Positions 7,367 to 23,772 are shown, numbered from the stretch's first letter. The stretch is 64,000 nt of DNA from Rhodothermales bacterium (GCA_965223485.1 OZ244993.1:1207400-1271399); one strand, 5' to 3'. Program-made: numbers and translations. The notes: a model not told the origin generated them from the letters alone.

Positions 7367-9527
<2,161 letters not shown>

Positions 9528-9600
9528 GCTGGCGCCCTTCCGTCAACCTGCCACTGTTTAAAGGAACCGGATTTGCGCCCGGCGCTACGATACGGGGGAT

Positions 9601-10101
9601 GTGATCGATATGACGCTGGAAGCACTGCTCGCCCTGCTCGACTATCACTATTGGGCCCGGGACCGGCTGCTCGATGCGGTCGAGGAGATCACGCCCGACC
9701 ACTTCCATAAGGATATGGGGAACAGTTTTCCCTCCATTCGGGACACGTTACTCCATATCGTGTTTGCTGAATTTGTGTGGCGCTCGCGCTGGGAGGGGGA
9801 ATCGCTGCCGGAGCCTTTCGACCCGAAGGATTTCGAAACCGTGCAGGATGTTCGCGCGCGCTGGATTGAGGAGGAGCACCGAGTGCGGCGATTCGTCGAT
9901 CAACTCGGCCCGGACAGCCTCAACCATTTGTTCCGCTACACCGAGCTCAGCGGCAAGCCGACACAGTCCGTTTTCTGGCAGTCCTTGCAGCATGTGGTCA
10001 ACCATGCTTCCTATCACCGCGGGCAGGTCACCACGATGTTGCGCCAACTCGGGGCCCGGCCGCCGGATAGCCAGGACCTGATTGCGTTCTATCGTCTATG
10101 A
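9601..10101 (+). CDS. DinB family protein
   Basis: 166 aa with LLDYHYWARDRLL..IRDTLLHIVFAEFVW..LQHVVNHASYHRGQVTTMLRQLG, the DinB/YfiT-type histidine pattern. The start may instead be the ATG at 9610. Confidence 0.8.
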   Translation: MIDMTLEALLALLDYHYWARDRLLDAVEEITPDHFHKDMGNSFPSIRDTLLHIVFAEFVWRSRWEGESLPEPFDPKDFETVQDVRARWIEEEHRVRRFVDQLGPDSLNHLFRYTELSGKPTQSVFWQSLQHVVNHASYHRGQVTTMLRQLGARPPDSQDLIAFYRL

Positions 10102-10220
10102 CCAGGGTTGGTAGCCGGGCGATGGGGGGATATTGGCGTAACGGTCCGGTCACGCGGCTCTATCGGTTGACGGTGCGGGGGGAGGTATTTGGAGCAGCGT
10201 AGCAAGCCGATCTAAAATTT

Positions 10221-10285
10221 ATTCAGCAAATCTGTTGACAACATAACCGTTGATCCCGTATATTGTCATTCAGCAATTTTGTTGA
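10221..10285 (+). promoter_or_regulatory. pair of 18-nt direct repeats (ATTCAGCAAWYTKTTGA) in the AT-rich region upstream of the ATPase gene
   Basis: 10221-10238 and 10268-10285 match at 16/18. The first copy overlaps a TTGACA hexamer. Confidence 0.35.
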
Positions 10286-10445
10286 ATTAAATGAGGGTTG
10301 TTGCAACTCTCGATGCACTGCCGGGTAAACGGCGAGGACTTTTTGATGGCGATTAGGAGTCGCACACAGTGTGGAAGCGGGTCCGTGACCGCCATAGTCT
10401 CCTGCAAAAGCGCTGCTATGATGCGGCATAATCCGGACACATGCA

Positions 10446-13400
10446 ATGGATGAATCACGCAGGCGCACCATCCGCAAATTCAATCCCGGCACGTTCCAGT
10501 CCGATGAGGAGATCATCAGGCAATTCGTGGTCAGGGAGCGCGAGCTTGGCGCCGTGCTCGATATTATCCGAAGAAACATCAATGCGTTTGTTTGCCAGCC
10601 TGTCCTGATCGCTGCGCCTCGCGGTCAGGGCAAGACCATGCTGCTGGCCCGGGTTGCGGCGGCGTTGAACACCGAGGCCGATCTCTCCAGGCGTCTTTTG
10701 CCGGTCCGGTTCACGGAGGAAAGTCACGAGATATTCAATCTTGAGGACTTCTGGCTCGAGACATTGTTTTACCTTGCGCGGGAGAGCGCCGAGCACGATT
10801 CCGAGCTCGCAAAGGAATTGCAAGAAGCGCGTGCCGATCTGGTCAGGCGGTGGGACGAGGAAGCGCTTGTCGATCACGCCCGCGCCACGGTTCTGGAAGC
10901 TGCGGACCGGTTGGGCAAAAAACTTGTCCTCATGGTCGAAAACATGCAGGACCTCTGCGAAAATGTGGACGACGATTTTGGCCAGCAACTTTGCGGGGCG
11001 CTGCAATCGGAATCGCAGATCATGCTGCTCGCCACCGCTACGAGCCGCTTCGGAGGGTTGAACGACGTGGAGCACCCGTTTTTCGAGTTGTTCCGAACTA
11101 TTGATCTGAAACCGCTGGATACGGAAGAATGCCGCCGCTTGTGGCAAGTGGTCAGCGGAGACGAAGTGAACAGGCGGGATATCAGGCCGCTTGAGATTCT
11201 GACCGGCGGCAGTCCTCGCCTTCTGGTCATCGTCGCCGGGTTTGCCCAGCACCGGTCTTTGAGCCAGTTGATGGAAGAGCTGGTGCAGTTGATCGACGAT
11301 CATACCGAGTATTTCCGCGGTCATCTGGAGGCGCTGGCCAAGACCGAACGCCGGGTGTATCTCGCGGCGATCGATCTTTGGCAGGCGTCAAGCACGGGCG
11401 AGATCGCGACGCGGGCCCGCGTGGACGTTCGGACGGTGTCGGCCCTGCTTGGCCGACTCGTCGACCGGGGCATGGTCCGTGTGGATGGGAGCGGCAAGAA
11501 GCGGCTTTACGCCGCTGCGGAACGTCTTTACAGTATCTACTACAAACTGCGCCGCGAACGAGACGAGGCGGCTGTTGTGAGCGGTCTGATCCATTTTATG
11601 GTTGCGTTTTACAGCGAAGAGGAAATGGCCGAGAGGGTTAAAAAGTTGATTGCAGAGGCGAAGCGATTTCCAGGTATCCGGAAGGGCATTGAACGGGCGA
11701 TTGCCGAAGCGCCGTACATCGGGAGCTTTTTCCCGGGTATTGCGCGGCCAAAGATGGATCGGGTGTTCGTCCTGGATACGGCGTGCGGCAACGAGCGCGT
11801 CGAACGATTGCTCGAAGAGATTGCCGTGATGTTCCAAAAGGCGGAAACGCACAAGAAAGCCGGAGATTTCGCGGCGGCGATTATGGTCTATCGCGAGTTG
11901 ATCATGCGATTCGGCGCCAGTGAAGACCCGGATTTGCAGATGCAGATCGCCCGGGCGTTGTCCGACAAGGGGGATGCGCAAAGGGAACTCGGCGATTTCG
12001 CAACGGCAATTGCGACGTACGAAGAACTGATCGAGCGTTTTGGCGACAGCGAAGCGCCGGAATGCCAGTTTGCGGTTGTTTTGGCGTTGTCCGACAAGGG
12101 GGATATACAGAGGGAGCTTGGCGATTATCCATCGGCGATTGCGACCTATGAAAACTTGATCGAGCGCTCTGGCGACAGCGAAGCGCCGGAATGCTTGTAT
12201 TCGGTTCCCTGGGCATTACTTCACAAGGGGAATATGCACAAGGAACTCGGCGATTTCGCATCGGCGATTGTGTCTTACGAAGCGTTGATCAAGCGCTTTG
12301 GCGCCAGCGATGCACCGGAAAGCCGGTTCCCGCTTGCTTGGGCGTTGTGTCAGAAGGGAGATATGCAAGAGCAACTCGGTGATTTGGAGGGTGCGATTGT
12401 GACCTATGATGAAGTGATTGCATGTTTTGGCGGCAGCGACGCTTCGGAACTTCAGGTGCGCGTAGCCTGGGCGCTGTCTCAAAAGGGAGATATCCACCAG
12501 GAACTTAACGATTTTGATGAGGCGCTTGCGGTTTACGATGAAGTGATCGAGCGCTTTGGCGGTAGCGATGTCCCGGAACTCCAGGCGCTGGTTGCCAGCG
12601 CGTTGTCCGGTAAGGGATATATATTCGGACATCCGTTCGGAGATGATGCCTTGGCGCTTGCGGCCTACGACGAGTTGATTATGCGTTTTGGCGACAGCGA
12701 TGCGCCGGATATTCAGGAGCGGATCGCCTGGGCCTTGCACCAAAAGGGGATTTTTCAAGGGCAGCTTGGGGATTTCATGTCGGCGCTGGTCGTCTATGAC
12801 AAGATGATCGCACGTTTTGGCGGCAGCGAATCGCTTGAGATCCAGGCTTTGGTTGCCTGGACCTTGTTCGAGAAGGGAGATGTCCAACGACAACTTGGAG
12901 ATTATCCATCGTCGATTGCTGCCTGCAATGAAATTGTCATGCGCTTTGGCGATAGTGGTGCACAGGATCTCCAGATGCCGGTTGTTTGCGCGTTGTTCGA
13001 TAAGGGTATGAGACAACTGGAGATGGGGCATGGGGAGGAAGCGCTGCGCACACGTGAGGAGTTTGCCCGGCGATCCGGATCCCTGACCGATTTTTCGAAG
13101 GCAGGCTGCGCACTGCGGGCAATATGGATGCGCCCGGGATCATTACCGATACAAGGCCATCCCGAGATTGCTGCGGATGTATTGCAGTTTGTGTATATGT
13201 TGTTCGTGCCCGGTGAAAGGACAATGGTGGCAATGATGCAGCACATTGTGCTTGATCTGATCGCAGTTGGCGTCCCGGCGCATGAACTTGTCGAGATATT
13301 GTCGAGCGACGCCATGAAGGCCAGCGCGTTGACGCCGCTTGTCATTGCTCTCCTCCAGTATGCTGGCGAAGCGGTTCGGGCGCCTGTGGAAGTCCTTGAA

Positions 13401-13553
13401 GTTGCGGCGGATATCCGGGAGCGGATTGAGGAAAGGATGGCGGGAGGCGTTGGCACTGATTTTCCGCTGTTTCGCGGAACCGGACTCATACCCGGCGTGG
13501 ACCTGAGCGATTCGGCTTCCCCGTCCGACCTCATGGAGGAGGATCGGGAATGA
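10446..13553 (+). CDS. STAND/Arch_ATPase-like NTPase with winged-helix segment, nine 43-aa helical (TPR-like) repeats and a C-terminal helical domain
   Basis: 1035 aa. FVVRERELG lead-in, Walker A APRGQGKT (aa 57-64), Walker-B-like KLVLMVEN (aa 159-166), and a wHTH-like segment (VSALLGRLVDRGMVRVDGSGKKRLY). Repeats start at aa 482, 525, 568, 611, 654, 697, 741, 784 and 827. Confidence 0.8.
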   Translation: MDESRRRTIRKFNPGTFQSDEEIIRQFVVRERELGAVLDIIRRNINAFVCQPVLIAAPRGQGKTMLLARVAAALNTEADLSRRLLPVRFTEESHEIFNLEDFWLETLFYLARESAEHDSELAKELQEARADLVRRWDEEALVDHARATVLEAADRLGKKLVLMVENMQDLCENVDDDFGQQLCGALQSESQIMLLATATSRFGGLNDVEHPFFELFRTIDLKPLDTEECRRLWQVVSGDEVNRRDIRPLEILTGGSPRLLVIVAGFAQHRSLSQLMEELVQLIDDHTEYFRGHLEALAKTERRVYLAAIDLWQASSTGEIATRARVDVRTVSALLGRLVDRGMVRVDGSGKKRLYAAAERLYSIYYKLRRERDEAAVVSGLIHFMVAFYSEEEMAERVKKLIAEAKRFPGIRKGIERAIAEAPYIGSFFPGIARPKMDRVFVLDTACGNERVERLLEEIAVMFQKAETHKKAGDFAAAIMVYRELIMRFGASEDPDLQMQIARALSDKGDAQRELGDFATAIATYEELIERFGDSEAPECQFAVVLALSDKGDIQRELGDYPSAIATYENLIERSGDSEAPECLYSVPWALLHKGNMHKELGDFASAIVSYEALIKRFGASDAPESRFPLAWALCQKGDMQEQLGDLEGAIVTYDEVIACFGGSDASELQVRVAWALSQKGDIHQELNDFDEALAVYDEVIERFGGSDVPELQALVASALSGKGYIFGHPFGDDALALAAYDELIMRFGDSDAPDIQERIAWALHQKGIFQGQLGDFMSALVVYDKMIARFGGSESLEIQALVAWTLFEKGDVQRQLGDYPSSIAACNEIVMRFGDSGAQDLQMPVVCALFDKGMRQLEMGHGEEALRTREEFARRSGSLTDFSKAGCALRAIWMRPGSLPIQGHPEIAADVLQFVYMLFVPGERTMVAMMQHIVLDLIAVGVPAHELVEILSSDAMKASALTPLVIALLQYAGEAVRAPVEVLEVAADIRERIEERMAGGVGTDFPLFRGTGLIPGVDLSDSASPSDLMEEDRE
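11853..13055 (+). repeat. intragenic array of ~129-bp (43-aa) repeats
   Basis: Unit consensus is Y(D/E)E(L/V)I.RFG.S(D/E)AP..Q..VA.AL..KG..Q..LGD...A.. The array lies inside the ATPase CDS. Confidence 0.85.
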
Positions 13554-13666
13554 CGGACGCACGCTTCGAGGGATTGCACTGGAGATCCCTGGGCGGCTTG
13601 CAAGCAGTTGAAAAAGATTTTCCTGATTTTTAGTACGCGTTCCCTGTTAACCGAGCTCTTCGGAGT

Positions 13667-14674
13667 ATGATCGAAAAACCGCCATACGCGATTACAGCGG
13701 ACATTCTTTTCCTCGTTGAACGCATCGGCGAAGCGATCGGCCGGGCGGAGGCAGCGGGCGTCTCGCGCAATGTCCGCCTGCGACGAACCAATCGCATCCG
13801 TACGATCCGGGGCTCTCTGGCTATAGAAGGCAATATCCTCAGCGAGGAGGAAATTTCCTCGATCCTCGACGGCAAGCCCGTTGCCGCCCCGCTGAAAGAT
13901 ATTCAGGAGGCCCGCAACGCTATTAAGGCCTATGACCAATATCGGCAGTGGGATCCCGCCAGCGAGGCCGATCTGCTGCAAGCTCACCGGATCCTGATGG
14001 CCGGATTGCTGGATGCGCCCGGACAGTATCGCCGCACCGGCGTTGGCGTTATGGGTAGTGGGGTAATTCATCACATCGGCCCGCCCGCCGAGTATGTACC
14101 GCAACACATGGCGAATTTGCTGGCGTGGCTTGGCGATGCCGATGAGCACCCGCTCATCGCCAGTTCGGTCTTTCATTACGAATTCGAGTTCATTCACCCT
14201 TTTGAGGATGGCAACGGACGAATGGGGCGGCTTTGGCAGACGCTGATTCTGACCCGCTGGAAATCCCTGTTCGCCAGTATTCCCGTAGAGAGTCTGGTTC
14301 ATGCTCGCCAGGACGATTATTACAGAGCCATCAGGCAGAGTTCGGCGGCGGGAGCGAGTACGTCGTTCATTGAATTCATGCTGGAGATTATTCTGGAGGC
14401 CCTCCGGGCTTCCGGGGTGAGCGACCAAGTAAGCGATCAGGTAAGCGACCAGGTAGCACAGTTGATCGCCGCCTTGCGGACAGGTTCGAAATCCGCTGCT
14501 GAACTTATGGCGGCAATAGGGCTATCGCATCGCCCTACCTTTCGTAAAAACTACCTCCGCCCGGCAATGTCCGCGGGGCTGGTGGAAATGACGCGCCCCG
14601 AATCGCCCACGGCGAAGAACCAGAAGTATCGGTTGACGGTTAGGGGGAGGGGGGTTTTGGAGGCGCAAACGTGA
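13667..14674 (+). CDS. Fic family protein (class II, N-terminal inhibitory motif) with C-terminal wHTH
   Basis: 335 aa with Fic motif HPFEDGNGRMGRLW, inhibitory motif SLAIEG ([ST]xxxE[GN]), and a C-terminal KYRLTVRG-type winged helix. Confidence 0.9.
   Translation: MIEKPPYAITADILFLVERIGEAIGRAEAAGVSRNVRLRRTNRIRTIRGSLAIEGNILSEEEISSILDGKPVAAPLKDIQEARNAIKAYDQYRQWDPASEADLLQAHRILMAGLLDAPGQYRRTGVGVMGSGVIHHIGPPAEYVPQHMANLLAWLGDADEHPLIASSVFHYEFEFIHPFEDGNGRMGRLWQTLILTRWKSLFASIPVESLVHARQDDYYRAIRQSSAAGASTSFIEFMLEIILEALRASGVSDQVSDQVSDQVAQLIAALRTGSKSAAELMAAIGLSHRPTFRKNYLRPAMSAGLVEMTRPESPTAKNQKYRLTVRGRGVLEAQT
14417..14455 (+). repeat. 3 x 12-bp in-frame tandem repeat (VSDQ)3 inside Fic1
   Basis: gtgagcgaccaa / gtaagcgatcag / gtaagcgaccag, located between the Fic core and the C-terminal wHTH. 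Confidence 0.9.
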
Positions 14675-14888
14675 GTCAGGGCTAAGTGTGGCGTGCCAGA
14701 GCAGAATCGGTACCGGCTGCTCAGTGTAACCTGATTCCGGATGCCTGATTCATTGATTTCTGTTCAAACTTATGCTATTCTTGCGGCATGACATGTCTTG
14801 GAGTTGACTGCGATTACCATAACTTGCGCTACTTCGAGATGACCCCTGAATGTGCGCAGACCTTCATCATGAAAGGAGGAGGTACTCT

Positions 14889-15101
14889 ATGAAAATAAAG
14901 ATCGAGAAGGAGTGGTGTCTCCGAATGGCGGAGATTGAGGAGGATGCCGAGATCGGAGTTGGCTGGGACTCCCTTGATTACGTTCTGACAACCCTTGCGC
15001 CATTTCCACCAGCATCGGGAGATGATGATCCATCAGAAAGCGATAGTTCGCTTTCGTGTGCGACAGAACGGGATGAGCGTGCAGGTACACGCGGGTGCTG
15101 A
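14889..15101 (+). CDS. small hypothetical protein (possibly truncated)
   Basis: GGAGG sits 7 nt upstream of the ATG. The first ~30 aa (MKIKIEKEWCLRMAEIEEDAEIGVG) look protein-like; the rest is low complexity. Confidence 0.3.
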   Translation: MKIKIEKEWCLRMAEIEEDAEIGVGWDSLDYVLTTLAPFPPASGDDDPSESDSSLSCATERDERAGTRGC

Positions 15102-15119
15102 CTTTGATGATCTTGTAGA

Positions 15120-15239
15120 TCACGTTCCATACACAAACTCCTCCCCGATCTCCCATCTCCCCTTCTCGCAGAAAACCGGAACGGTCCGGCGCGCAGTTGC
15201 GTTGGTGGTAGCAGTTGCCTTACTCACGAGGATGCCGCG
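15120..15239 (-). pseudogene. orphan 3' fragment of a Fic-associated C-terminal HTH (paralog of the Fic2 3' end)
   Basis: It encodes ..ATARRTVPVFCEKGRWEIGEEFVYGT*, compared with Fic2 ..NAARRQTIPAFRERGVWKIGEEFVYGARDA*. 15127-15151 matches 18996-19020 at 24/25 nt. No Fic core lies upstream. Confidence 0.7.
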
Positions 15240-15391
15240 GGTCTTGGGCGCTGTGGCGTTGTATATCGGTGTTGAACATCCGCTTCTACAGAATTCTTTT
15301 TTCTCGTCATTTGCATTGCAATCCTCGTTCAAAAAGATTACTATAAGTAGCGTAACGATTCTTGTGCCGGGAGCTTTCAAGGGGAGAGATA

Positions 15392-17137
15392 ATGAGTGAG
15401 GTCCGTCAACTACGCTCCGTAAAGCGTTATCGTACTACCACCGAAGAAAAGGCCGCAGGGGCTACCTACACGCCTAAAGTCCTTGCCGATTTTGTTGCGC
15501 GGAAGGTTGTCCAGCTTGCCGGCGAACTGCCCACCCATCGCCGGCTCCGCGTTCTCGACCCTGCTATCGGCCATGGAGAACTGCTAATCAGCTTGCTCGA
15601 GGGCTTAGCCGGCCAGTCGAACCTGACCATCGAAGTGCATGGTTTCGAGACGAATCGCGAGGCGCTTGCTACCGCAACGGCGCGAATCGAGCGACAATTC
15701 CCGAACGCTTCGCTTCATTTCAGGCCAGACAACTTCCTCGAGTTCGTCCTAAAGCACTGCGGATACGGCGGTCAAAGCAACCTGTTCAATTCCGCCGCCC
15801 CCGAAACCTATGATCTGATTATTGCTAATCCCCCCTATGTCCGCACCCAGATCATGGGGGCCGCACAGGCGCAGCTTATGGCCAGACAGTTCGGTCTGTC
15901 CGGTCGCGTGGATATGTATTACGCCTTCATGCTGGGTATATCTCACGTACTCGAGCCCAAGGGCATTGCCGGGATCATCGTCTCCAACCGCTTCATGACC
16001 ACCAGGTCCGGGGCCGCTGTTCGGCAAGCCTTGCTGAAGCGTTTCGACATTCGGCATGTATGGGATTTGGGCGATACGAAGCTATTCGATGCGGCAGTGC
16101 TGCCCGCCGTTTTGCTCGTCGAGAACAAGAATGGCCGTACATCGAAGTCCCCGGCCTTCACGTCAATCTATCAAACCACCGACCCGGTGCGCCAACGCGC
16201 CACGGACCCGATCAGCGCCCTGACCGGAGAAGGCGTCGTCGAGATAGACGACGGGCGACGTTTCCATGTCCGGCATGGCAAGCTGGATACAAGCGGCACG
16301 TTCAATGGCGTTTGGCGGATTGCCACCGAAGCTGTCGATGCCTGGTTAGCCACAGTGGAAGCTCATAGTTTGGGCACGTTCCGTGACATCGGCAAAATCC
16401 GTGTCGGCGTCAAGACCTGCGCCGACAAGGTGTTCGTCCAAAACGACTGGAAGAGCATGTCTGAGGCTGACCGTCCCGAATTGCTCAAACCGCTCACAAC
16501 GCACCACATTGCCCGTCGCTTCAAGCCACTGATTGCGGAGAAGCCAACCCGAATTCTCTACCCGCACGAGGTTTCGCACGGCCGCCGTCGGGCCGTCGAT
16601 CTTGCGCAATATCCCCGCAGCAAGACCTATCTCGACACGCATCGCGCCACGCTCGAAGGCCGCCAATATGTTACCGAGGCAGGTCGCGAGTGGTACGAAA
16701 TCTGGGTGCCCCAGGACCCCGATGCCTGGCAGCGGCCCAAACTCGTTTTCCGGGACATTGCCGACGAACCCACGTTCTGGATCGATCTGGACGGATCCGT
16801 CGTCAACGGCGACTGTTACTGGCTCACCTGTCAGAATCCGGAACAGACCGACTTGTTATGGCTCGCAGCGGCCGTCGGTAATTCGACGTTCATTGAGCGA
16901 TTCTACGATTACCGCTTCCATAACAAGCTCTATGCGGGTCGCCGTCGCTTCATCACCCAGTATGTCGAGAAATTCCCGATCCCCGACCCCGAAACCTCTC
17001 TCGGCAGGAAGATTATCGCTCAGGCCAAGCGGATATACGAATGCATCTCGTTCCCGGATGTCGTCCATCTCCAAAAGGAACTGGACGGCATGGTTTGGGA
17101 GTCGTTCGGTTTAGTCGTCGAAGAAATCGGCGGGTAG
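15392..17137 (+). CDS. N6-adenine DNA methyltransferase (type II, gamma-class, Eco57I/TaqI-like)
   Basis: Motif I VLDPAIGHGELL, motif IV IIANPPYVRTQ. AGGGGAGAG precedes the ATG at 15392. Confidence 0.9.
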   Translation: MSEVRQLRSVKRYRTTTEEKAAGATYTPKVLADFVARKVVQLAGELPTHRRLRVLDPAIGHGELLISLLEGLAGQSNLTIEVHGFETNREALATATARIERQFPNASLHFRPDNFLEFVLKHCGYGGQSNLFNSAAPETYDLIIANPPYVRTQIMGAAQAQLMARQFGLSGRVDMYYAFMLGISHVLEPKGIAGIIVSNRFMTTRSGAAVRQALLKRFDIRHVWDLGDTKLFDAAVLPAVLLVENKNGRTSKSPAFTSIYQTTDPVRQRATDPISALTGEGVVEIDDGRRFHVRHGKLDTSGTFNGVWRIATEAVDAWLATVEAHSLGTFRDIGKIRVGVKTCADKVFVQNDWKSMSEADRPELLKPLTTHHIARRFKPLIAEKPTRILYPHEVSHGRRRAVDLAQYPRSKTYLDTHRATLEGRQYVTEAGREWYEIWVPQDPDAWQRPKLVFRDIADEPTFWIDLDGSVVNGDCYWLTCQNPEQTDLLWLAAAVGNSTFIERFYDYRFHNKLYAGRRRFITQYVEKFPIPDPETSLGRKIIAQAKRIYECISFPDVVHLQKELDGMVWESFGLVVEEIGG

Positions 17138-18004
17138 CGGAATCTGTATTTTCCAGTTCGACAAATTGCCCTGAAACTGCGGGAATCGTGAGAAAAACTT
17201 CGCACCCGTTGTTAGGAAGAAGTGTGTCAGCGTGACAATTTCTCCATCCGTCGTTGCATAGAACAGAGCATAGCGAACATCGCAGTGCCGGATATGCTGG
17301 CCACTAATCTTCGGCACATCAAGGGCTTCTTCGCTATCCGGACACACAAGGCCGAGGTCTATCGTCGGCGATGTCTGTAATTTCACTTCAAGAAGCTGAT
17401 GTAGTATATCCGGGAATTGCCCATCGTCCCGGTAATCGGCGTAGCCCAAACGCTGGCATACCAACCGGTGCAAGGCTGCCCCCCGGTTGCGTTCCTGGTC
17501 ATGGCCTGCATCTGGAAAGCTTTCGCCGATCAGGGCCTGTAACCCTTCAAAAATATGCTCGATTGGCAATAGTTTTCCTGCTTCAGGATAGCTGACCGGA
17601 TCCGATGTAATAGATTCAAGGTTGGTTTTGGGCCTGACAACGTGTCGGAGACGCTCCGTATCCTCTGTAGCAATTAGCTCCACGCTGCTTTCGCTAGGAA
17701 TGATCCGGGCCTGATATTTATGAGTTAGTGCGCCCGTGGTATCAAATTGCGCCAGGACATTTCCAGTGACGACTTTCACCTTAGTGATGGTGTCATTCTT
17801 GCCAAGTCGGATGATCACGTAGCGCCGTACAAGGGTAATCTCCTCATTCCAAATCTGTAAATTGTTGGATTTCTGGATGTAGGTGTCAAAAAGTTGGCCC
17901 GGAAACCGAGGGTGTGTTTTCTTGAAACTTGACGGCGCCGGATAACCGAGTGCTTGACAAATCCGTTCCTTGTACGAATCCGGTCCATTGTCGTTAGTTA
18001 CCAT
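17111..18004 (-). CDS. type II restriction endonuclease (PD-ExK)
   Basis: 297 aa with FPDILHQLLEVKLQ, a PD..(E)xK pattern. It converges on and overlaps the methyltransferase by 27 nt, and its start overlaps the C-protein gene. Confidence 0.65.
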   Translation of the reverse strand: MVTNDNGPDSYKERICQALGYPAPSSFKKTHPRFPGQLFDTYIQKSNNLQIWNEEITLVRRYVIIRLGKNDTITKVKVVTGNVLAQFDTTGALTHKYQARIIPSESSVELIATEDTERLRHVVRPKTNLESITSDPVSYPEAGKLLPIEHIFEGLQALIGESFPDAGHDQERNRGAALHRLVCQRLGYADYRDDGQFPDILHQLLEVKLQTSPTIDLGLVCPDSEEALDVPKISGQHIRHCDVRYALFYATTDGEIVTLTHFFLTTGAKFFSRFPQFQGNLSNWKIQIPLPADFFDD

Positions 18005-18278
18005 CTTCGAACGCTTTCCTGGTCAAGAGCTTTGGGACATCCGTTCCAAGTGCCGCAGCCAGAATCTCCAGCGTACTTAGCGTGGCATTCCTTTCTCCTC
18101 TCTCCAGCGAACCCACATAAGTCCGGTGGAGACTGCATATTTCGGCAAATTTTTCCTGGGATATGTCCCTGGACTTTCTGTAAGCGCGGATATTGTCTGC
18201 AAGAATTTGTCTCAACTCCGCGCTTGGAGTTCTAAGTTTTTTGTTGCCCACTTCCCTCTGGTAGTGTTCTGAAAACAC
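17994..18278 (-). CDS. HTH XRE-family controller (C) protein of the RM system
   Basis: 94 aa with LRQILADNIRAYRKSRDISQEKFAEICSLHRTYVGSLERGERNATLSTLEILAAAL. Its 3' end overlaps the endonuclease start by 11 nt, the classic C-R operon arrangement. Confidence 0.8.
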   Translation of the reverse strand: MFSEHYQREVGNKKLRTPSAELRQILADNIRAYRKSRDISQEKFAEICSLHRTYVGSLERGERNATLSTLEILAAALGTDVPKLLTRKAFEDGN

Positions 18279-18306
18279 GAATATTCAACAGGTTATTGAA
18301 GATGAT

Positions 18307-18324
18307 GCCTATAAGTCTACACAC
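18307..18324 (-). promoter_or_regulatory. candidate C-box operator
   Basis: The minus strand reads GTGTGTAGACTTATAGGC ~30-45 nt upstream of the C-gene start, resembling the TGTGACTTATAGTC-type C-boxes of C.AhdI/C.Esp1396I. Confidence 0.4.
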
Positions 18325-18472
18325 AAAGAGTAGCATAGCGGCTCGGCGCCACAGGTTGTACCGCATCCAATTCTGTCCATGCCAGCGCCAATGTTCCATG
18401 CAGTGCGCAACGTAATGGGTATGTTCCGTAGCGTATATCCTTTTCTCTTGCCCTCATCGTTTGAACCACAGA

Positions 18473-18868
18473 TCATGAGTCATCAAGTTGGATGATCTGT
18501 ACGATCTTCTTCGCCAGGTTCTTGAAATCCCGGCGAGCGTCATTGGCCGCTGCCGCGTGGCTGCCAATGGCGCCGTCTGCCGCGGTAAGGTGAAAAATGG
18601 GCTTGCGGGCTTCCTTGGCCATCGGGACCAGACTCCGATAGTGTTTTACGGTGGCGAGGGCGTGTTCTTCATCTTCCGCCGGCATCGCGGGATACGGTCC
18701 TTCTTCGTCGCCGAGCAAGTTGCGGGCGTATTCTTCCGGCATGAGATTGAACCACTCGTTAAGGGCCCTGATAGGGCGGGTCAGGCGGAAGCCGTGTTGT
18801 TGCACCACATAACCGACGGGTTGCATCCTTCCGTCCGGCAATGGAAAATCCGGTTGTGCCGACGCCAC
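18473..18868 (-). CDS. hypothetical protein, downstream partner of Fic2
   Basis: 131-aa ORF on the same strand, 111 nt after the Fic2 stop. I recognise no motif. Confidence 0.5.
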   Translation of the reverse strand: MASAQPDFPLPDGRMQPVGYVVQQHGFRLTRPIRALNEWFNLMPEEYARNLLGDEEGPYPAMPAEDEEHALATVKHYRSLVPMAKEARKPIFHLTAADGAIGSHAAAANDARRDFKNLAKKIVQIIQLDDS

Positions 18869-18979
18869 TCTTGTTGTTGAAGAAGGTCAAAACGGGAACG
18901 CTCATCTTTCTGCTCCTCCAGGTTTTGTTTGCCCTTTATTGCTGCCGACCTGAAAATACTGCCGAGATTGACAGCGGCG

Positions 18980-19879
18980 TCAGGCATCGCGGGCCCCATA
19001 CACAAACTCCTCCCCGATCTTCCACACCCCCCTTTCCCGAAAAGCGGGGATGGTCTGGCGGCGGGCGGCGTTCGTGACCGCAGGCGCCGAGAGTCCATGC
19101 TGTCTGATGTAATCCGACAGCCGGGTAATGGTCTCCCCTCGTAAATAGCTCAGCCTCTTGTGCAGGGACTCTATGAGCGCCAGCGCCAGAATACTTTCCA
19201 TGGTCCTTGTCGTGTGGCCGTCCTCATAGTCCGTGAATGCCCGGTAGTACTTCTGCTTTTCCGAGTTGCGGACGATAAGGCGCGGCAATCCCAGTTGCAG
19301 GAGCTGAAAATCGATGAGAATCCGCCCCAGGCGGCCGTTGCCGTCGCAAAAGGGATGGATCCGCTCAAAATCCAGATGAAATCGGGCAATCTTGTCGAGG
19401 AAATAGGGGTTGAGGTTGCTGGAGTACTCGATGAGAATATTATCCATCATGCGTTCCACATGTTCGGGCGCCGGTGCGATATGCGGGCCCACCCGCACAT
19501 ACTCTCCCTGCTGGCGAAAGCGTCCGGCGATGGCGTCGTCAATGCCTCCGATGAGCATCTGATGCAAGAGAAGTATCAGGCTCTTGCTCAATTCGCTGTC
19601 TTTGGTCCTGGCCCGCTTGTATTCCGTAACGCGAGCCAGATTTTTTGCCTCGAAGACTTCCCGCACGGATACATTCCGGGACAGCATCTGCTCCAGCAGG
19701 ATGCGCTCTGTCTCCTTGAGGGTGAGGGTCGAATTCTCGATCGCGTTCGAGTTGTACACGCTTTCGGGCGCCTCCACTTCGTCAATCATCGACAGCAACG
19801 ATTCCTTGCCCGGGCGCAGGGTGTCGTACGTCTTCTTCAGGGCCTGGATGCGGTTTCTTGTCGGCTGTGTGGTTGCCAT
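18980..19879 (-). CDS. Fic family protein (class II) with C-terminal HTH
   Basis: 299 aa with Fic motif HPFCDGNGRLGRIL, inhibitory motif SNAIEN, and C-terminal RRQTIPAFRERGVWKIGEEF. Confidence 0.9.
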   Translation of the reverse strand: MATTQPTRNRIQALKKTYDTLRPGKESLLSMIDEVEAPESVYNSNAIENSTLTLKETERILLEQMLSRNVSVREVFEAKNLARVTEYKRARTKDSELSKSLILLLHQMLIGGIDDAIAGRFRQQGEYVRVGPHIAPAPEHVERMMDNILIEYSSNLNPYFLDKIARFHLDFERIHPFCDGNGRLGRILIDFQLLQLGLPRLIVRNSEKQKYYRAFTDYEDGHTTRTMESILALALIESLHKRLSYLRGETITRLSDYIRQHGLSAPAVTNAARRQTIPAFRERGVWKIGEEFVYGARDA

Positions 19880-21286: not shown

Positions 21287-21509
21287 TTGCGTGCACGCTT
21301 TCAGGTAAAACACAGGCGGATTCGTTCAGGAAGTTTGACTTTTGGTATGAGACTCACGTATAATTTTCGAACTTGTGACGTTTCGGGGACAATCGCTCCT
21401 GCTGTCATTCCCATGGGCTTCGGGAATGCATTGTTATCGCATGACATGAAGGCGGGTCCTCATCCGGAAGATACCCCCTTTCATTTCACCAGACTGTAGC
21501 ACAAGGACG

Positions 21510-23768
21510 ATGTACCCTCCATTTCGTGGTTGCGGGTTCCAATCGATTCGCGCAGGCTGCCTTCGCGCCAGACAGCATAAGCGCCATACGGTTCTTCCTG
21601 CCTCCGGGATTGGCAGGCATGTGCTTGTTGGTCTTTTGTTGGCGGTTGCGCCATTTGTACACGGAAGGAGCTTTGGTCAGCCGGTAAGGGGCTGGCCGGT
21701 TAATACCAGTATCGGGCATAAGCATTGGGTCCTTTCGGTAGCCTTTTCGCCCGATAGCAGTATCGTGGCGTCCGCGTCCCGTGACGGAACCGTCAGGCTG
21801 TGGGATGTAGCTACGGCATCCAACACCGTAACGCTCCTGGGGCATACGGATTGGGTCCTTTCGGTAGCCTTTTCGCCCGATAGCAGTACCGTGGCCTCCG
21901 CATCCCGTGACGGAACCGTCAGGCTGTGGGATGTGGCTACGGGATCCAACGCCGCAACGCTCCCGGGGCATACGTCCTGGGTCAATTCGGTAGCCTTTTC
22001 GCCCGATGGCGGTACTCTGGCGTCCGCGTCCAGTGACGGAACCGTCAGGCTGTGGGATGCGGCTACGGGAGAGAGCACCGCAACGCTCCCGGGGCATACG
22101 TCCTGGGTCCTTTCGGTAGCCTTTTCGCCCGATGGCGGTACCGTGGCGTCCGCGTCCACTGACGGAACCGTCAGGCTGTGGGATGTGGCTACGGGGTCCG
22201 AGACCGCAACGCTCCCGGGGCATACGCATTCGGTCAGTTCGGTAGCCTTCTCGCTCGATGGCAATATCGTGGCGTCCGCGTCCTATGACGAAACCGTCAG
22301 GCTGTGGGATGTGGCTACTGGATCCAACACCGCAACGCTCTCGGGGCATAGGGATCGGGTCAATTCGGTAGCCTTTTCGCCCGATAGCAGCACCGTGGCG
22401 TCCGCGTCCGATGACGGAACGGTCAGGCTGTGGGATGTGGCTACGGAATCCAACACCGCAACGCTCCCGGGGCATACCGGGTTGGTCAATTCGGTAGCCT
22501 TTTCGCCCGATGGCAGTATCGTGGCGTCCGCGTCCCATGACAGAACCGTCAGGCTGTGGGATGTAATTTCAGGGAGTCCCACCTCTACGTTTGGACCCGG
22601 AGTCATACCCTTGGCGGTCGTTTATTCACCTGATGGAAGTACGCTGGCCTCGGGAACCGATGATCATACCGTCAGGCTGTGGGATGTGGCCACGGGATCC
22701 GAGACCGCAACGCTCCCGGGGCATACGTCCGGGGTTAATTCGGTAGCCTTTTCGCCCGATAGCAGTACCGTGGCGTCCGCATCCTATGACAGAACCGTCA
22801 GGCTGTGGGATGTGGCTACGGAATCCAACACCGCAACGCTCTTTGGGCATACGTCCGGGGTTCTTTCGGTAGCCTTTTCGCCCGATGGTAATACCCTGGC
22901 GTCCGCGTCCAGTGACAGAACCGTCAGGCTGTGGGATGTGGCTACTGAATCCGAGACCGCCACGCTATCGGGGCATACCGGGTGGGTCAGTTCGGTAGCC
23001 TTTTCGCCCGATAGCGGTACCGTGGCGTCCGCGTCCTATGACAGAACCGTCAGGCTGTGGGATGTGGCTACTGAATCCGAGACCGCAACGCTCTTTGGGC
23101 ATACCGGGAGTGTCAATTCGGTAGCCTTTTCTCCTGATGGCAGTATCGTGGCGTCCGCGTCCGATGACGGAACCGTCAGGCTGTGGGATGTGGCTACTGA
23201 ATCCAACACCGCAACGCTCTTTGGGCATACGTTTTGGGTCAATTCGGTAGCCTTTTCGCCCGATGGAAACATGCTGGCTTCGGGAGGCGACGACAGAACC
23301 GTCAGGCTGTGGGATGTGGCTACGGAATCCAACATCGCAACGCTATCGGGGCATACCGGGTGGGTCAATTCGGTAGCCTTTTCGCCCGATGGAAACATGC
23401 TGGCGTCAGGGGCATGGGATTGTTTCATTAATCTGTGGGACGTATCAGTCGTAACAGGGCTTGCGCTCGATGACGAAGGGGAGGTTCCAACGGCCTTCCG
23501 CCTGCACGGCAACTATCCCAATCCGTTCAATCCGTCAACGCGCGTGGTATTCGACCTGCCGTCGGCAGCCGAAGTGACGGTGCATGTCTTTGACGTATTG
23601 GGAAGAAACGTGATGGTCACAGGCCCCGTGTCCGTATCGGGCGGTTGGGACCGTTCCCTTGAAGTGCATGCATCCTCGTTGCCCTCGGGCGTATACGTCT
23701 ATCAGGTAAGGGCGCATACGGGTTCGGACATGCTTGTCCGGTCAGGGCGCATGATCCTCGCGAAATGA
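21510..23768 (+). CDS. secreted WD40-repeat protein (14 blades) with T9SS C-terminal sorting domain
   Basis: 14 units of GH..WV.SVAFSPD....ASAS.D.TVRLWDV. The C-terminus LHGNYPNPFNPSTRVVFDLP..SGVYVYQVRA is a T9SS tail. The start is uncertain; a signal-like LVGLLLAVAPFVHG lies near 21620. Confidence 0.85.
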   Translation: MYPPFRGCGFQSIRAGCLRARQHKRHTVLPASGIGRHVLVGLLLAVAPFVHGRSFGQPVRGWPVNTSIGHKHWVLSVAFSPDSSIVASASRDGTVRLWDVATASNTVTLLGHTDWVLSVAFSPDSSTVASASRDGTVRLWDVATGSNAATLPGHTSWVNSVAFSPDGGTLASASSDGTVRLWDAATGESTATLPGHTSWVLSVAFSPDGGTVASASTDGTVRLWDVATGSETATLPGHTHSVSSVAFSLDGNIVASASYDETVRLWDVATGSNTATLSGHRDRVNSVAFSPDSSTVASASDDGTVRLWDVATESNTATLPGHTGLVNSVAFSPDGSIVASASHDRTVRLWDVISGSPTSTFGPGVIPLAVVYSPDGSTLASGTDDHTVRLWDVATGSETATLPGHTSGVNSVAFSPDSSTVASASYDRTVRLWDVATESNTATLFGHTSGVLSVAFSPDGNTLASASSDRTVRLWDVATESETATLSGHTGWVSSVAFSPDSGTVASASYDRTVRLWDVATESETATLFGHTGSVNSVAFSPDGSIVASASDDGTVRLWDVATESNTATLFGHTFWVNSVAFSPDGNMLASGGDDRTVRLWDVATESNIATLSGHTGWVNSVAFSPDGNMLASGAWDCFINLWDVSVVTGLALDDEGEVPTAFRLHGNYPNPFNPSTRVVFDLPSAAEVTVHVFDVLGRNVMVTGPVSVSGGWDRSLEVHASSLPSGVYVYQVRAHTGSDMLVRSGRMILAK
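21711..23430 (+). repeat. intragenic 126-bp (42-aa) WD40 repeat array with high nucleotide identity between units
   Basis: Strings such as ACCGTCAGGCTGTGGGATGTGGCTAC and TCGGTAGCCTTTTCGCCCGAT recur with a 126-nt period. Confidence 0.9.
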
Positions 23769-23772
23769 CGAT

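What the first reader, a model, noticed from the sequence alone, without database searches (positions are those of the whole stretch)
15040..19100. RM cassette is bracketed by a duplicated Fic2-type 3' end, with a possible tyrosine-recombinase scrap beside it
15127-15151 matches 18996-19020 at 24/25 nt, with weaker similarity continuing for ~100 nt. The left copy encodes ..ARRTVPVFCEKGRWEIGEEFVYGT* and the right is the genuine Fic2 terminus ..ARRQTIPAFRERGVWKIGEEFVYGARDA*.

The left copy lacks any Fic core. Its upstream side is replaced at ~15240 by the methyltransferase promoter region. The segment between the copies (M, R, C and the 131-aa gene) therefore looks like an insertion, or one of two tandem Fic paralogs was truncated by the incoming RM system.

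Weak extra hint: on the minus strand at ~15040-15115 the peptide IIKVSTRVYLHAHP resembles the ..T..Y.H C-terminal box of tyrosine recombinases. It is only a scrap and I do not call it a feature.
Basis: partly seen in the sequence, partly recalled or inferred. Interest (0 to 1): 0.55.

Follow-up and report, generated by a model that had tools for sequence, protein, structure and literature searches.

The report
Fic gene relic beside mobile RM cassette
A 100-base leftover of a second Fic2-type gene lies next to a mobile type II restriction-modification cassette, inside a fast-changing defence-gene hotspot between two convergent Fic genes; the repeat is real, but it does not mark the ends of the cassette, so this is ordinary genome turnover.

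Summary
The repeat is real. 15127-15151 equals 18996-19020 at 25/25, and 93 nt align without gaps at 72%; shuffles give 0 matches.

- The M-R-C genes are a mobile type II RM module. Its ends, 15297-18337, are the same to within about 2 nt in three unrelated genomic contexts.
- The repeats lie 78 nt and about 660 nt outside those ends.
- Among related Rhodothermales sponge-symbiont genomes, the unit that varies is the whole interval between the last codons of Fic1 and Fic2 (14664-18995). Relatives carry other cargo there, or almost nothing.
- The window and strain L005 are 99.8% identical across 14711-18931 but differ by 4-5% in the flanks. The island, with the left copy inside it, was therefore exchanged recently.
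- The "131-aa gene" is a ParA-like pseudogene.
- The left copy (15120-15219) is a decaying relic of a Fic2-type 3' end. It differs from the family at 13 of 27 near-invariant residues, and it diverges about four times faster than its neighbours.
- Its perfect 25-32 nt end is a local conversion patch, because relative L091 has only 23/25 there.
- No tyrosine-recombinase signal exists.

I read the region as layered turnover in a defence-island hotspot. It is a new instance of a known kind and of low interest.

The parts
13667..14674 (+). Fic1, a SoFic-like Fic protein (Fic plus Fic-like_C domains). It forms the left conserved border of the variable interval.
   Evidence: Pfam Fic 9e-22 and Fic-like_C 2e-27. 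PADLOC SoFic 8e-46. Homology to L002 and L003 stops at 14663, inside its last codons.
14664..18995 (.). Hypervariable island between the 3' ends of the two convergent Fic genes.
   Evidence: Relatives carry different content at this place. L002 has only a 58-aa HsdS-C-terminus-like remnant. L003 has that remnant plus DUF3644, TIR_2 and a transposase. L001 has SLFN_AlbA_2, HATPase_c_4, ParA and SNF2-PLD. In L004, Fic2 is followed directly by DinB.
14711..18931 (.). Segment shared at 99.8% with strain L005 while the flanks differ by 4-5%. This is the unit exchanged recently.
   Evidence: 7 differences in about 4.2 kb, against about 225 in 5.3 kb of left flank and 11 in 18932-19049. Fisher p = 2.5e-48.
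14889..15101 (+). orf70, an orphan small ORF with a strong Shine-Dalgarno-like AAAGGAGGAGG upstream. It lies antisense to the proposed integrase scrap.
   Evidence: The only match among 5.8 billion proteins is an identical 70-aa protein. No Pfam, NCBIfam or PADLOC hit. The region is present in L091 with conservative amino-acid changes and a TTG start.
15120..15219 (-). Left copy: a relic (pseudogene fragment) of the last 33 codons plus stop of a Fic2-type gene.
   Evidence: 93 nt at 72% to the right copy. 68-72% to every one of 53 sampled alleles over 81 nt. It differs at 13 of 27 near-invariant residues. Only 85/100 identical to the L091 relic, against 96-97% for neighbouring DNA.
15127..15151 (.). 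Left copy of the 25-nt core, identical to the right copy.
   Evidence: Together with 15120-15126 it makes 32 nt identical to the L002 Fic2 end.
15220..15296 (.). 77-nt spacer of unknown origin between the relic and the RM module.
   Evidence: Not homologous to Fic2. Absent from L006 and L092. Has a 15-nt indel relative to L091.
15297..18337 (.). Mobile type II RM module (M, R, C), with sharply defined ends.
   Evidence: Homology to L006 runs over 15297-18337 and to L092 over 15299-18336. The flanks are unrelated in each context. L093 carries the same three genes in yet another context.
15392..17137 (+). N6-adenine DNA methyltransferase (M).
   Evidence: Pfam Eco57I, N6_Mtase and TaqI_C. PADLOC MTase_II PDLC03226, 9e-193.
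17111..18004 (-). Type II restriction endonuclease (R), carrying an in-frame 54-codon N-terminal deletion.
   Evidence: PADLOC REase_II PDLC03565, 1e-121, matching profile positions 74-358 only. The 351-aa L091 version matches positions 21-358. R is 351-352 aa in L006, L091, L092 and L093. The 162-nt gap lies at window 17971/17972.
17994..18278 (-). Controller (C) protein.
   Evidence: Pfam HTH_3 3e-14. PADLOC Control_protein 5e-28.
18450..18949 (-). ParA/CbiA-like pseudogene. About 100 nt of the 5' end and about 400 nt of the 3' end remain, and the frame is broken. The '131-aa gene' at 18473-18868 is its 3' part.
   Evidence: 18852-18949 matches L001 12598-12500 at 83%, and 18450-18855 matches L001 13596-13191 at 80.5%. 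The intact L001 gene hits AAA_31 and CbiA. L091 keeps a longer 238-aa version.
18960..18988 (-). Remnant of the 5' end of a fused hsdM/S gene, which normally starts right after the Fic2 stop codon.
   Evidence: The motif ATGCCTGACGCCGC is shared with L002, L003, L006 and L038. It corresponds to the start MLDTATKRR... of the N6_Mtase+Methylase_S gene in Latescibacterota loci.
18980..19879 (-). Fic2, an intact 299-aa Fic protein with the HPFCDGNGR motif. It forms the right conserved border of the variable interval.
   Evidence: Pfam Fic 7e-20. PADLOC PDC-S04 4e-35. The 120 best homologues listed are 80-99% identical, and relatives in more than ten phyla are 65-86% identical.
18996..19088 (-). 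Right copy of the repeat: the genuine 3' end of Fic2.
   Evidence: Only 2 of its 93 positions differ from L002, both at third codon positions.

Best explanation
The interval between the 3' ends of two convergent Fic genes is a hotspot where defence cargo is gained, lost and swapped between strains. Fic1 is SoFic-like and Fic2 is PDC-S04-like. The swapping probably happens by homologous recombination in the conserved flanks; that step is inferred.

Fic2-type genes normally sit inside compact type I RM operons (hsdR, fic, fused hsdM/S). Such modules have entered this region more than once and then decayed. The left copy (15120-15219) is the last 33 codons of one such second Fic2-type gene. It has no function and drifts about neutrally.

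Its perfect 25-32 nt end is a short patch copied from an intact Fic2 allele of the L002 type. It is not a target-site duplication.

The M-R-C genes are a separate, self-contained mobile module (15297-18337). The module landed between a ParA-like gene and that relic in an ancestor shared with L091. In the window lineage both R and ParA have since suffered deletions.
For: Shown:
- The RM module has the same ends in three unrelated contexts, and no Fic relic accompanies it in L006, L092 or L093.
- Syntenic relatives carry different cargo between Fic2 and Fic1.
- Against L005 the cargo is 99.8% identical while the flanks differ by 4-5%.
- The relic is equally distant (68-72%) from all 53 sampled alleles. 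Its mismatches against the right copy fall 8/6/12 across codon positions 1/2/3.
- It differs from the family at 13 of 27 near-invariant residues.
- The window and L091 relics are 85% identical where neighbouring DNA is 96-97%. By my count on that alignment, 8 codons differ non-synonymously and 4 synonymously.
- The L091 relic core reads GAGGAATTCGTGTATGG. That is 23/25 to its own right copy, and it resembles distant alleles. The perfect core is therefore specific to the window/L005 lineage.
- Identity along the relic is heterogeneous: 0/32 mismatches against 24/68, Fisher p = 2.6e-5.
- Comparable Fic2 fragments occur next to intact Fic2 genes in L040 (N- and C-terminal fragments flanking a foreign gene), L031 and L044.
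- The typical operon context is confirmed by Pfam. Remnants of hsdM and hsdS flank Fic2 in this clade.
Against: - No intact parent allele of the relic was found, so its donor is unresolved.
- No N-terminal Fic2 fragment survives in the window.
- The relic does not abut the RM module, so at least one further deletion or insertion must be assumed.
- The conversion patch ends exactly at the stop codon, where homology to Fic2 alleles also ends. Classical two-sided gene conversion does not predict that.
- The converted tail, aacgtga, matches the L002-type allele and not the resident Fic2 tail. The relic must have met another allele, which is plausible given the recent exchange of the island but is not shown.
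Confidence: 0.62

Rival explanations
1. Campbell-type insertion, or insertion with long target duplication. A circular, integrase-less DNA carried the RM cassette plus a diverged Fic2 3' arm. It recombined with the chromosomal Fic2 3' end within the 25-nt identical core. That left hybrid direct repeats at both ends of the insert.
For: - The direct repeats have the same orientation and flank R and M.
- The near-empty relative L002 has a single copy that aligns with both repeats.
- The mosaic pattern fits one reciprocal crossover: a decayed body with a pristine VYGT* tail on the left, and a pristine body with an unusual ARDA* tail on the right.
- 25 nt is about the minimal length for RecA-dependent exchange (established knowledge).
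- The formal criteria of Furuta et al. 2010 are met: R and M in the insert, insert under 20 kb, repeat over 30 bp.
Against: - The RM module ends lie 78 nt and about 660 nt inside the repeats.
- The right copy keeps its native downstream sequence, the hsdM 5' remnant shared with L002, L006 and L038, for another 20-35 nt. The junction is therefore not at the core.
- L005 has the canonical stop at the right copy (VYGA*), so ARDA* arose from clustered point changes and not from an element-derived tail.
- In L091 the cores are 23/25.
- The sequence downstream of the left copy is not the L002/L003 downstream sequence.
- The repeats are 72% identical, against 44/46-type identities in the published cases.
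- Only 3-4 of about 90 Fic2 loci show any relic.
Confidence: 0.15
2. The left copy is a functional small gene. It would be a stand-alone copy of the Fic2 C-terminal helix-turn-helix-like tail, acting as a regulator or decoy for Fic2 or for the RM promoter.
For: - An open frame of 86 aa in the window and 58 aa in L091 covers it.
- The 15-nt indel between the two versions is in frame.
Against: - No Pfam, NCBIfam or PADLOC hit.
- No gene was called there in L005.
- The start codon and N-terminus differ between the window and L091.
- Changes are radical (W to R, G to R, R to C) and occur at residues the family keeps nearly invariant. The ratio of non-synonymous to synonymous changes is near neutral.
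- The upstream half of the frame is simply the antisense of the M promoter region.
Confidence: 0.03
3. A tyrosine recombinase, now reduced to a scrap at 15040-15115 on the minus strand, integrated the cassette site-specifically at the Fic2 3' end.
For: Only the three-residue pattern T..Y.H in IIKVSTRVYLHAHP.
Against: - No Pfam hit of any kind for the 89-aa ORF or the other ORFs of 14850-15400 at E<=10.
- No NCBIfam hit at E<=0.1.
- The stretch lies antisense to orf70.
- No integrase is called within 10 kb in L005, L091 or L006.
Confidence: 0.02

Closest known systems
RM-linked rearrangements of Furuta, Abe & Kobayashi 2010 (PMC2853133): 'insertion with long target duplication' and 'allelic substitution'
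   Same: An integrase-less R+M unit under 20 kb is flanked by direct repeats over 30 bp. One copy of the repeat is present in a related genome that lacks the unit. Alternative gene sets occupy the same locus in relatives.
   Different: The repeats are only 72% identical, against about 95% in the published cases. They do not abut the RM module. The comparison with relatives is a substitution of the whole Fic1-Fic2 interval, not a clean insertion or deletion.
Defence-island or variable hotspots flanked by conserved genes, such as the E. coli hsd 'immigration control region' (own knowledge; also mentioned in the introduction of PMC2853133)
   Same: Conserved flanking genes surround strain-specific defence cargo: RM, TIR, SLFN/AlbA_2, SNF2-PLD and a transposase. 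The cargo is much younger than the flanks.
   Different: The borders here are themselves candidate defence genes, two convergent Fic genes. The breakpoints fall within their last few codons.
Type II RM systems with a controller (C) protein
   Same: An HTH_3 controller gene lies upstream of and overlaps R. M is convergent and overlaps the R 3' end. All three have strong PADLOC matches.
   Different: R has lost 54 N-terminal codons relative to four homologues. Whether it is still active is unknown.
SoFic and PADLOC candidate PDC-S04 Fic-domain defence proteins
   Same: Fic1 matches SoFic at 8e-46 and Fic2 matches PDC-S04 at 4e-35. Both carry the HPFx[D/E]GNGR motif.
   Different: Defence activity was not tested. 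NCBIfam SoFic scores are far below the equivalog cut-off of 550 bits (58 and 35 bits). The left copy has none of the Fic core.

Membership tests
[quoted passage not shown] | Both R and M homologues lie in the sequence between the repeats | tested here: met
   M 15392-17137 and R 17111-18004 lie between 15151 and 18996.
[quoted passage not shown] | Insert under 20 kb and repeat over 30 bp, with no other mobile element | tested here: met
   3.8 kb lies between the copies. The repeat is 93-100 nt. No integrase or transposase was found.
[quoted passage not shown] | The repeats are near-identical copies of a single target present once in the empty genome | tested here: not met
   L002 has one copy that aligns with both. 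Left against right is only 72%, and left against L002 is 83% over 72 nt. Published cases are of the 44/46 kind.
[quoted passage not shown] | The repeats directly bound the inserted unit, and the flanks are otherwise collinear with the empty genome | tested here: not met
   The module ends at 15297 and 18337. 14664-15119 and L002 10892-11365 are unrelated.
Site-specific integration by a tyrosine recombinase | A recombinase gene or recognisable remnant adjacent to the att repeats | tested here: not met
   No Pfam hit at E<=10 in any ORF of 14850-15400. None is called in L005, L006 or L091.
Type II RM system with C protein | MTase, REase and controller HTH protein in one compact cluster | tested here: met
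   PADLOC MTase_II 9e-193, REase_II 1e-121, Control_protein 5e-28. The same trio occurs in L006, L091, L092 and L093.
Fic/DOC family (for the left copy) | Fic core with the HPFx[D/E]GNGR motif | tested here: not met
   The left ORF has no Fic hit. Only codons 264 to the stop are homologous. Fic2 itself has HPFCDGNGR.
Variable defence hotspot between conserved flanking genes | Orthologous flanks with differing defence cargo in related genomes | tested here: met
   The window, L001, L002, L003, L004, L006 and L091 share EEP-Fic2, and most share Fic1-AAA/TPR, with different content between them.
Variable defence hotspot between conserved flanking genes | Cargo younger than the flanks (evidence of recombinational exchange) | tested here: met
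   7 differences in 4.2 kb of cargo against 4-5% in the flanks, window versus L005.

The most novel reading that the evidence does not exclude
The conserved 3' end of this widely transferred Fic2 gene could serve as a recombinase-independent docking site. Defence cassettes would carry a short, decayed Fic2 3' 'homology arm', kept partly fresh by conversion. That arm would let them loop out and re-insert next to Fic2 genes in other strains, or even other phyla, by host homologous recombination. The bracketed RM cassette would then be one frozen example.
Probability: 0.08. Interest if true: 0.55.

Novelty: new member of a known kind. Interest (0 to 1): 0.22.

Why it matters
The locus is a clear example of how a defence hotspot is built in uncultured sponge-associated Rhodothermales.
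- A self-contained RM module with base-precise ends sits among pseudogene layers (ParA, hsdM, hsdS and Fic relics).
- The whole island moves between strains as a block.

For annotation, the practical points are these:
- The 131-aa ORF and the 86-aa ORF are not genes.
- R is a deletion derivative.
- The odd Fic2 tail is a secondary change.

None of this overturns current ideas. The only broader lead is the strikingly conserved Fic family embedded in hsdR-fic-hsdM/S operons across many phyla.

Tried and rejected
- Exact-sequence look-ups of the window's Fic2 and Fic1 found nothing. I worked from near relatives instead.
- Searching for a closer donor allele of the relic gave no nearest clade. All 53 sampled alleles are 68-72% identical over 81 nt, and a consensus-aided ancestral reconstruction also found none.
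- A HMMER search of 1.84 billion representatives with the 40-aa relic peptide found only the L091 relic ORF plus two low-complexity repeat proteins.
- orf70 has no homologue other than an identical 70-aa protein.
- Two metagenome scans, one for the predicted pop-out junction and one for the orf70 region, gave 0 hits.
- The single-sequence AlphaFold model of R was unusable (pLDDT 35), so I ran no fold search. PADLOC identified R instead. The PDB sequence search for R found nothing.
- No promoter-like or terminator-like sites lie around the relic.
- The phage collection had no match. The plasmid collection had only a distant M/R homologue.
- I first favoured a single crossover inside the core (Campbell model). 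I downgraded it once L005, L091, L006 and L092 showed that the right-hand tail is native, that the core is not conserved, and that the module ends lie elsewhere.


Full report
**Observation**

The repeat exists as described.
- The 25-mer occurs only at these two places even with three mismatches allowed, against none in 100 shuffles.
- Ungapped similarity extends to 93 nt, 15127-15219 against 18996-19088, at 72%. Upstream of about 15220 it falls to the random level.
- The two encoded peptides read as the finding states.
- The left ORF (15120-15380, minus strand, 86 aa) has no Pfam or NCBIfam hit and no Fic core.

**Gene content**

| Coordinates | Strand | Feature | Evidence |
|---|---|---|---|
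| 10446-13553 | + | AAA_16/TPR protein | (Pfam of the L002 orthologue) |
| 13667-14674 | + | Fic1 (Fic plus Fic-like_C; PADLOC SoFic 8e-46) | |
| 14889-15101 | + | orphan 70-aa ORF | |
| 15120-15219 | - | left copy (relic) | |
| 15392-17137 | + | M (PADLOC MTase_II 9e-193) | |
| 17111-18004 | - | R (REase_II 1e-121) | |
| 17994-18278 | - | C (Control_protein 5e-28) | |
| 18473-18868 | - | the '131-aa' ORF | |
| 18980-19879 | - | Fic2 (Fic; PADLOC PDC-S04 4e-35; motif HPFCDGNGR) | |

**Comparative evidence**

Fic2 belongs to a very strongly conserved family.
- The 120 best homologues listed are 80-99% identical.
- Relatives at 65-86% occur in MAGs of Latescibacterota, Opitutales, Gemmatimonadota, Binatia, Gammaproteobacteria, Nitrospirales, Rhodothermales and Patescibacteria. 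Several records look sponge-associated, judging from their names.

Context look-ups gave close relatives of the window. All are oriented EEP then Fic2, followed by the region of interest.

| Locus | Content after Fic2 |
|---|---|
| L002 (2.9 Mb genome) | a 58-aa HsdS-C-terminus-like remnant, then Fic1 and AAA/TPR, with no RM |
| L003 | the same remnant plus DUF3644, TIR_2 and a transposase before Fic1 |
| L004 | Fic2 followed directly by DinB |
| L001 (99% identical to the window from 19005 onward) | SLFN_AlbA_2, HATPase_c_4, ParA and SNF2-PLD |

- Homology to L002 and L003 stops at 14663 on the left, inside the last Fic1 codons. It stops at 18996 on the right, inside the last Fic2 codons.
- The variable unit is therefore the whole 14664-18995 interval between two convergent Fic genes. 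It is not the segment between the two repeats.

**The RM module**

The same M-R-C trio occurs in other genomes.
- It sits next to Fic2 in the sponge MAG 'Bacteroidetes bacterium SB0662_bin_6' (L006-L009).
- It sits in two unrelated contexts with no Fic gene nearby: L092, between an SLFN_AlbA_2/HATPase_c_4 gene and another RM system, and L093, between AlkZ-like and UvrA genes.
- DNA homology to the window runs over 15297-18337 for L006 and 15299-18336 for L092. The flanks are unrelated in each case.
- The module therefore has ends defined to about 2 nt. The left repeat lies 78 nt outside one end and the right repeat about 660 nt outside the other.
- R is 351-352 aa in L006, L091, L092 and L093. 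The window's 297-aa R lacks 54 codons in frame at 17971/17972, which correspond to PADLOC profile positions 21-73.

**The '131-aa gene'**

- 18852-18949 and 18450-18855 match the 5' and 3' parts of the ParA/CbiA-like gene of L001 at 83% and 80.5%. About 590 nt are missing between them and the frame is broken.
- L091 retains a longer 238-aa version.
- This ORF is a pseudogene remnant, not part of the RM system.

**What normally lies downstream of Fic2**

- In most loci Fic2 sits between an HsdR-like gene (HSDR_N plus ResIII) and a fused HsdM/S gene (N6_Mtase plus two Methylase_S domains). The start codon of that fused gene follows the Fic2 stop as TGAtATG.
- The window's right copy is followed by a remnant of that start, ATGCCTGACGCCGC. 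The same remnant is present in L002, L003, L006 and L038.
- Native sequence therefore continues about 20-35 nt beyond the 25-nt core. The cargo junction lies near 18950-18960, where ParA homology begins.
- The unusual ...VYGARDA* tail is not element-derived. L005 has ...VYGA* with the canonical stop. The window differs from L005 by a cluster of substitutions at 18977-18992 that removes that stop.

**Nature of the left copy**

- It is 68-72% identical to every one of 53 sampled Fic2 alleles over 81 nt, with no closer donor.
- It differs from the family at 13 of 27 residues that are nearly invariant in the 120 homologues.
- Its mismatches against the right copy are spread 8/6/12 over codon positions 1/2/3.
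- A HMMER search of 1.84 billion representative proteins found one real relative, a 58-aa ORF.
- That ORF lies in L091, a 3.06 Mb circular genome with the same island in a less decayed state: Fic2, ParA (238 aa), C, R (351 aa), M, the relic, the orf70 region, a truncated Fic1 and AAA/TPR.
- Between the window and L091 the RM genes and their neighbours are 96-97% identical. The 100-nt relic is only 85% identical, and the adjacent spacer has a 15-nt indel.
- By my count on the alignment, 8 codons differ non-synonymously and 4 synonymously.
- The relic therefore evolves about neutrally. It also predates the split between the window and L091.

**The perfect core**

- Against the L002 allele the relic has 0 mismatches in its last 32 nt and 24 in the preceding 68 (Fisher p = 2.6e-5).
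- In L091 the relic's core reads GAGGAATTCGTGTATGGGGCGTGA. That is 23/25 to its own right copy, and it resembles distant alleles such as L006, L013 and L042.
- The most economical reading is that the window/L005 lineage acquired a short patch from an L002-type Fic2 allele. This step is an inference.
- The perfect match is therefore a recent, lineage-specific feature. It is not a preserved insertion scar.

**Recent movement of the island**

- The window and L005 differ at only 7 positions in 14711-18931. They differ at 4-5% in 9400-14710 and at 11 positions in 18932-19049 (p = 2.5e-48).
- The island, with the relic inside it and the right copy outside it, has a much more recent common ancestor than its flanks. 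That is the signature of recombinational exchange between strains.
- L001 and L005, which carry alternative islands, come from the same metagenome sample.

**Other Fic2 relics**

- L040 has an intact Fic2 followed by an N-terminal fragment, a beta-lactamase-like gene (judged by eye, not tested) and a C-terminal fragment.
- L031 has a C-terminal fragment 2.6 kb upstream of an intact Fic2, with cargo in between.
- L044 has an N-terminal fragment.
- Fic1 fragments also lie beyond the AAA/TPR gene in L002 and L091.
- Gene relics are thus a recurrent by-product of turnover around these genes. Only 3-4 of about 90 loci show a Fic2 relic, which argues against a general docking mechanism.

**The tyrosine-recombinase hint**

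- The 89-aa minus-strand ORF that contains IIKVSTRVYLHAHP has no Pfam hit at E<=10. Neither do the other ORFs of 14850-15400.
- None has an NCBIfam hit at E<=0.1.
- The stretch is antisense to orf70, and no integrase is called in the related loci.
- I reject this hint.

**Conclusion**

The best-supported explanation (confidence about 0.6) has three parts.
- This is a defence-island hotspot bounded by two convergent Fic genes.
- The left copy is a neutrally decaying relic of a second Fic2-type gene, carrying a short conversion patch.
- The RM cassette is an independent mobile module that is itself starting to decay.

The main rival is Campbell-type insertion or long-target-duplication insertion through the repeat (about 0.15). 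It fits the formal criteria of Furuta et al. 2010 (PMC2853133). It conflicts with the module ends, with the native sequence downstream of the right copy, with the L005 and L091 states, and with the 72% identity between the copies.

The case is a new instance of known RM-linked rearrangement and hotspot substitution. Interest is low.

Noticed in passing
window 17971/17972 (R gene 17111-18004, minus strand): The restriction endonuclease has an in-frame 162-nt (54-codon) N-terminal deletion relative to the 351-352-aa homologues in L006, L091, L092 and L093. PADLOC profile positions 21-73 are missing. M may be on its way to becoming an orphan methyltransferase.
   Followed up: partly
window 18450-18949: The '131-aa gene' is the 3' part of a ParA/CbiA-like pseudogene. 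The N-terminal P-loop peptide MSVPVLTFFNNKSGVGTT lies in another frame at 18852-18905. L091 has a 238-aa version, and L001 and L042 have intact 342-aa versions.
   Followed up: yes
window 18980-19879; loci L010-L089: Fic2 belongs to a family kept at 65-86% amino-acid identity across more than ten phyla. It is typically embedded between an HsdR-like gene and a fused HsdM/S gene, with the Fic2 stop and the next start overlapping as TGAtATG. This is a strikingly mobile and constrained Fic lineage (PADLOC candidate PDC-S04).
   Followed up: partly
window 14711-18931 versus L005: The island is 99.8% identical between two strains whose flanks differ by 4-5%. Two alternative islands (L001 and L005) coexist in one metagenome sample, ERZ25067264.
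   Followed up: yes
window 18977-18992: Seven substitutions relative to L005 cluster within 16 nt, right at the Fic2 stop codon. They convert ...VYGA* into ...VYGARDA*. This local patch is far denser than the surrounding divergence.
   Followed up: partly
L002 15831-16059 and L091 14655-14985, matching window 14070-14228 and 14563-14650: Fragments of a Fic1-type gene, including a Fic-like_C piece, lie on the far side of the AAA/TPR gene in relatives. Fic1 has therefore also left relics in this region.
   Followed up: no
L001 10909-10941; L003 17776-17793; L017 13755-13787; L022 12102-12134 and 13315-13347; similar sequences seen by eye in L004 and L091: A palindromic motif, TTCAACAA...TTGTTGAA, recurs at or near island junctions: immediately after the Fic2 stop in L001 and L004, and next to the Fic1 3' end in L091. 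It is absent from the window. It could be a small repeat element or an operator.
   Followed up: partly
window 14889-15101: orf70 has a strong ribosome-binding site and no homologue among 5.8 billion proteins except an identical 70-aa protein. The L091 version keeps the frame with mostly conservative changes and a TTG start, so it may be a real lineage-specific gene.
   Followed up: partly
window about 21300-23770 (WD40-repeat gene 21510-23768): The WD40-repeat protein gene is absent from L002, L003 and L004 but present in L001 and L091. Its product ends in what looks by eye like a type IX secretion sorting tail. It is a second presence/absence polymorphism next to the island.
   Followed up: no
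L040 10001-12676: An intact Fic2 is followed by a second Fic2 whose middle (aa 33-239) is replaced by a 457-aa gene that looks beta-lactamase-like by eye. Only N- and C-terminal fragments of the second copy remain.
   Followed up: partly
window 15811-17533 (query positions 1148-2870 of the search): A distant homologue of the M/R pair (68.6% nt identity) lies on a 6.6 kb Thioclava plasmid, NZ_CP135448.1. This RM family therefore also travels on small plasmids.
   Followed up: no
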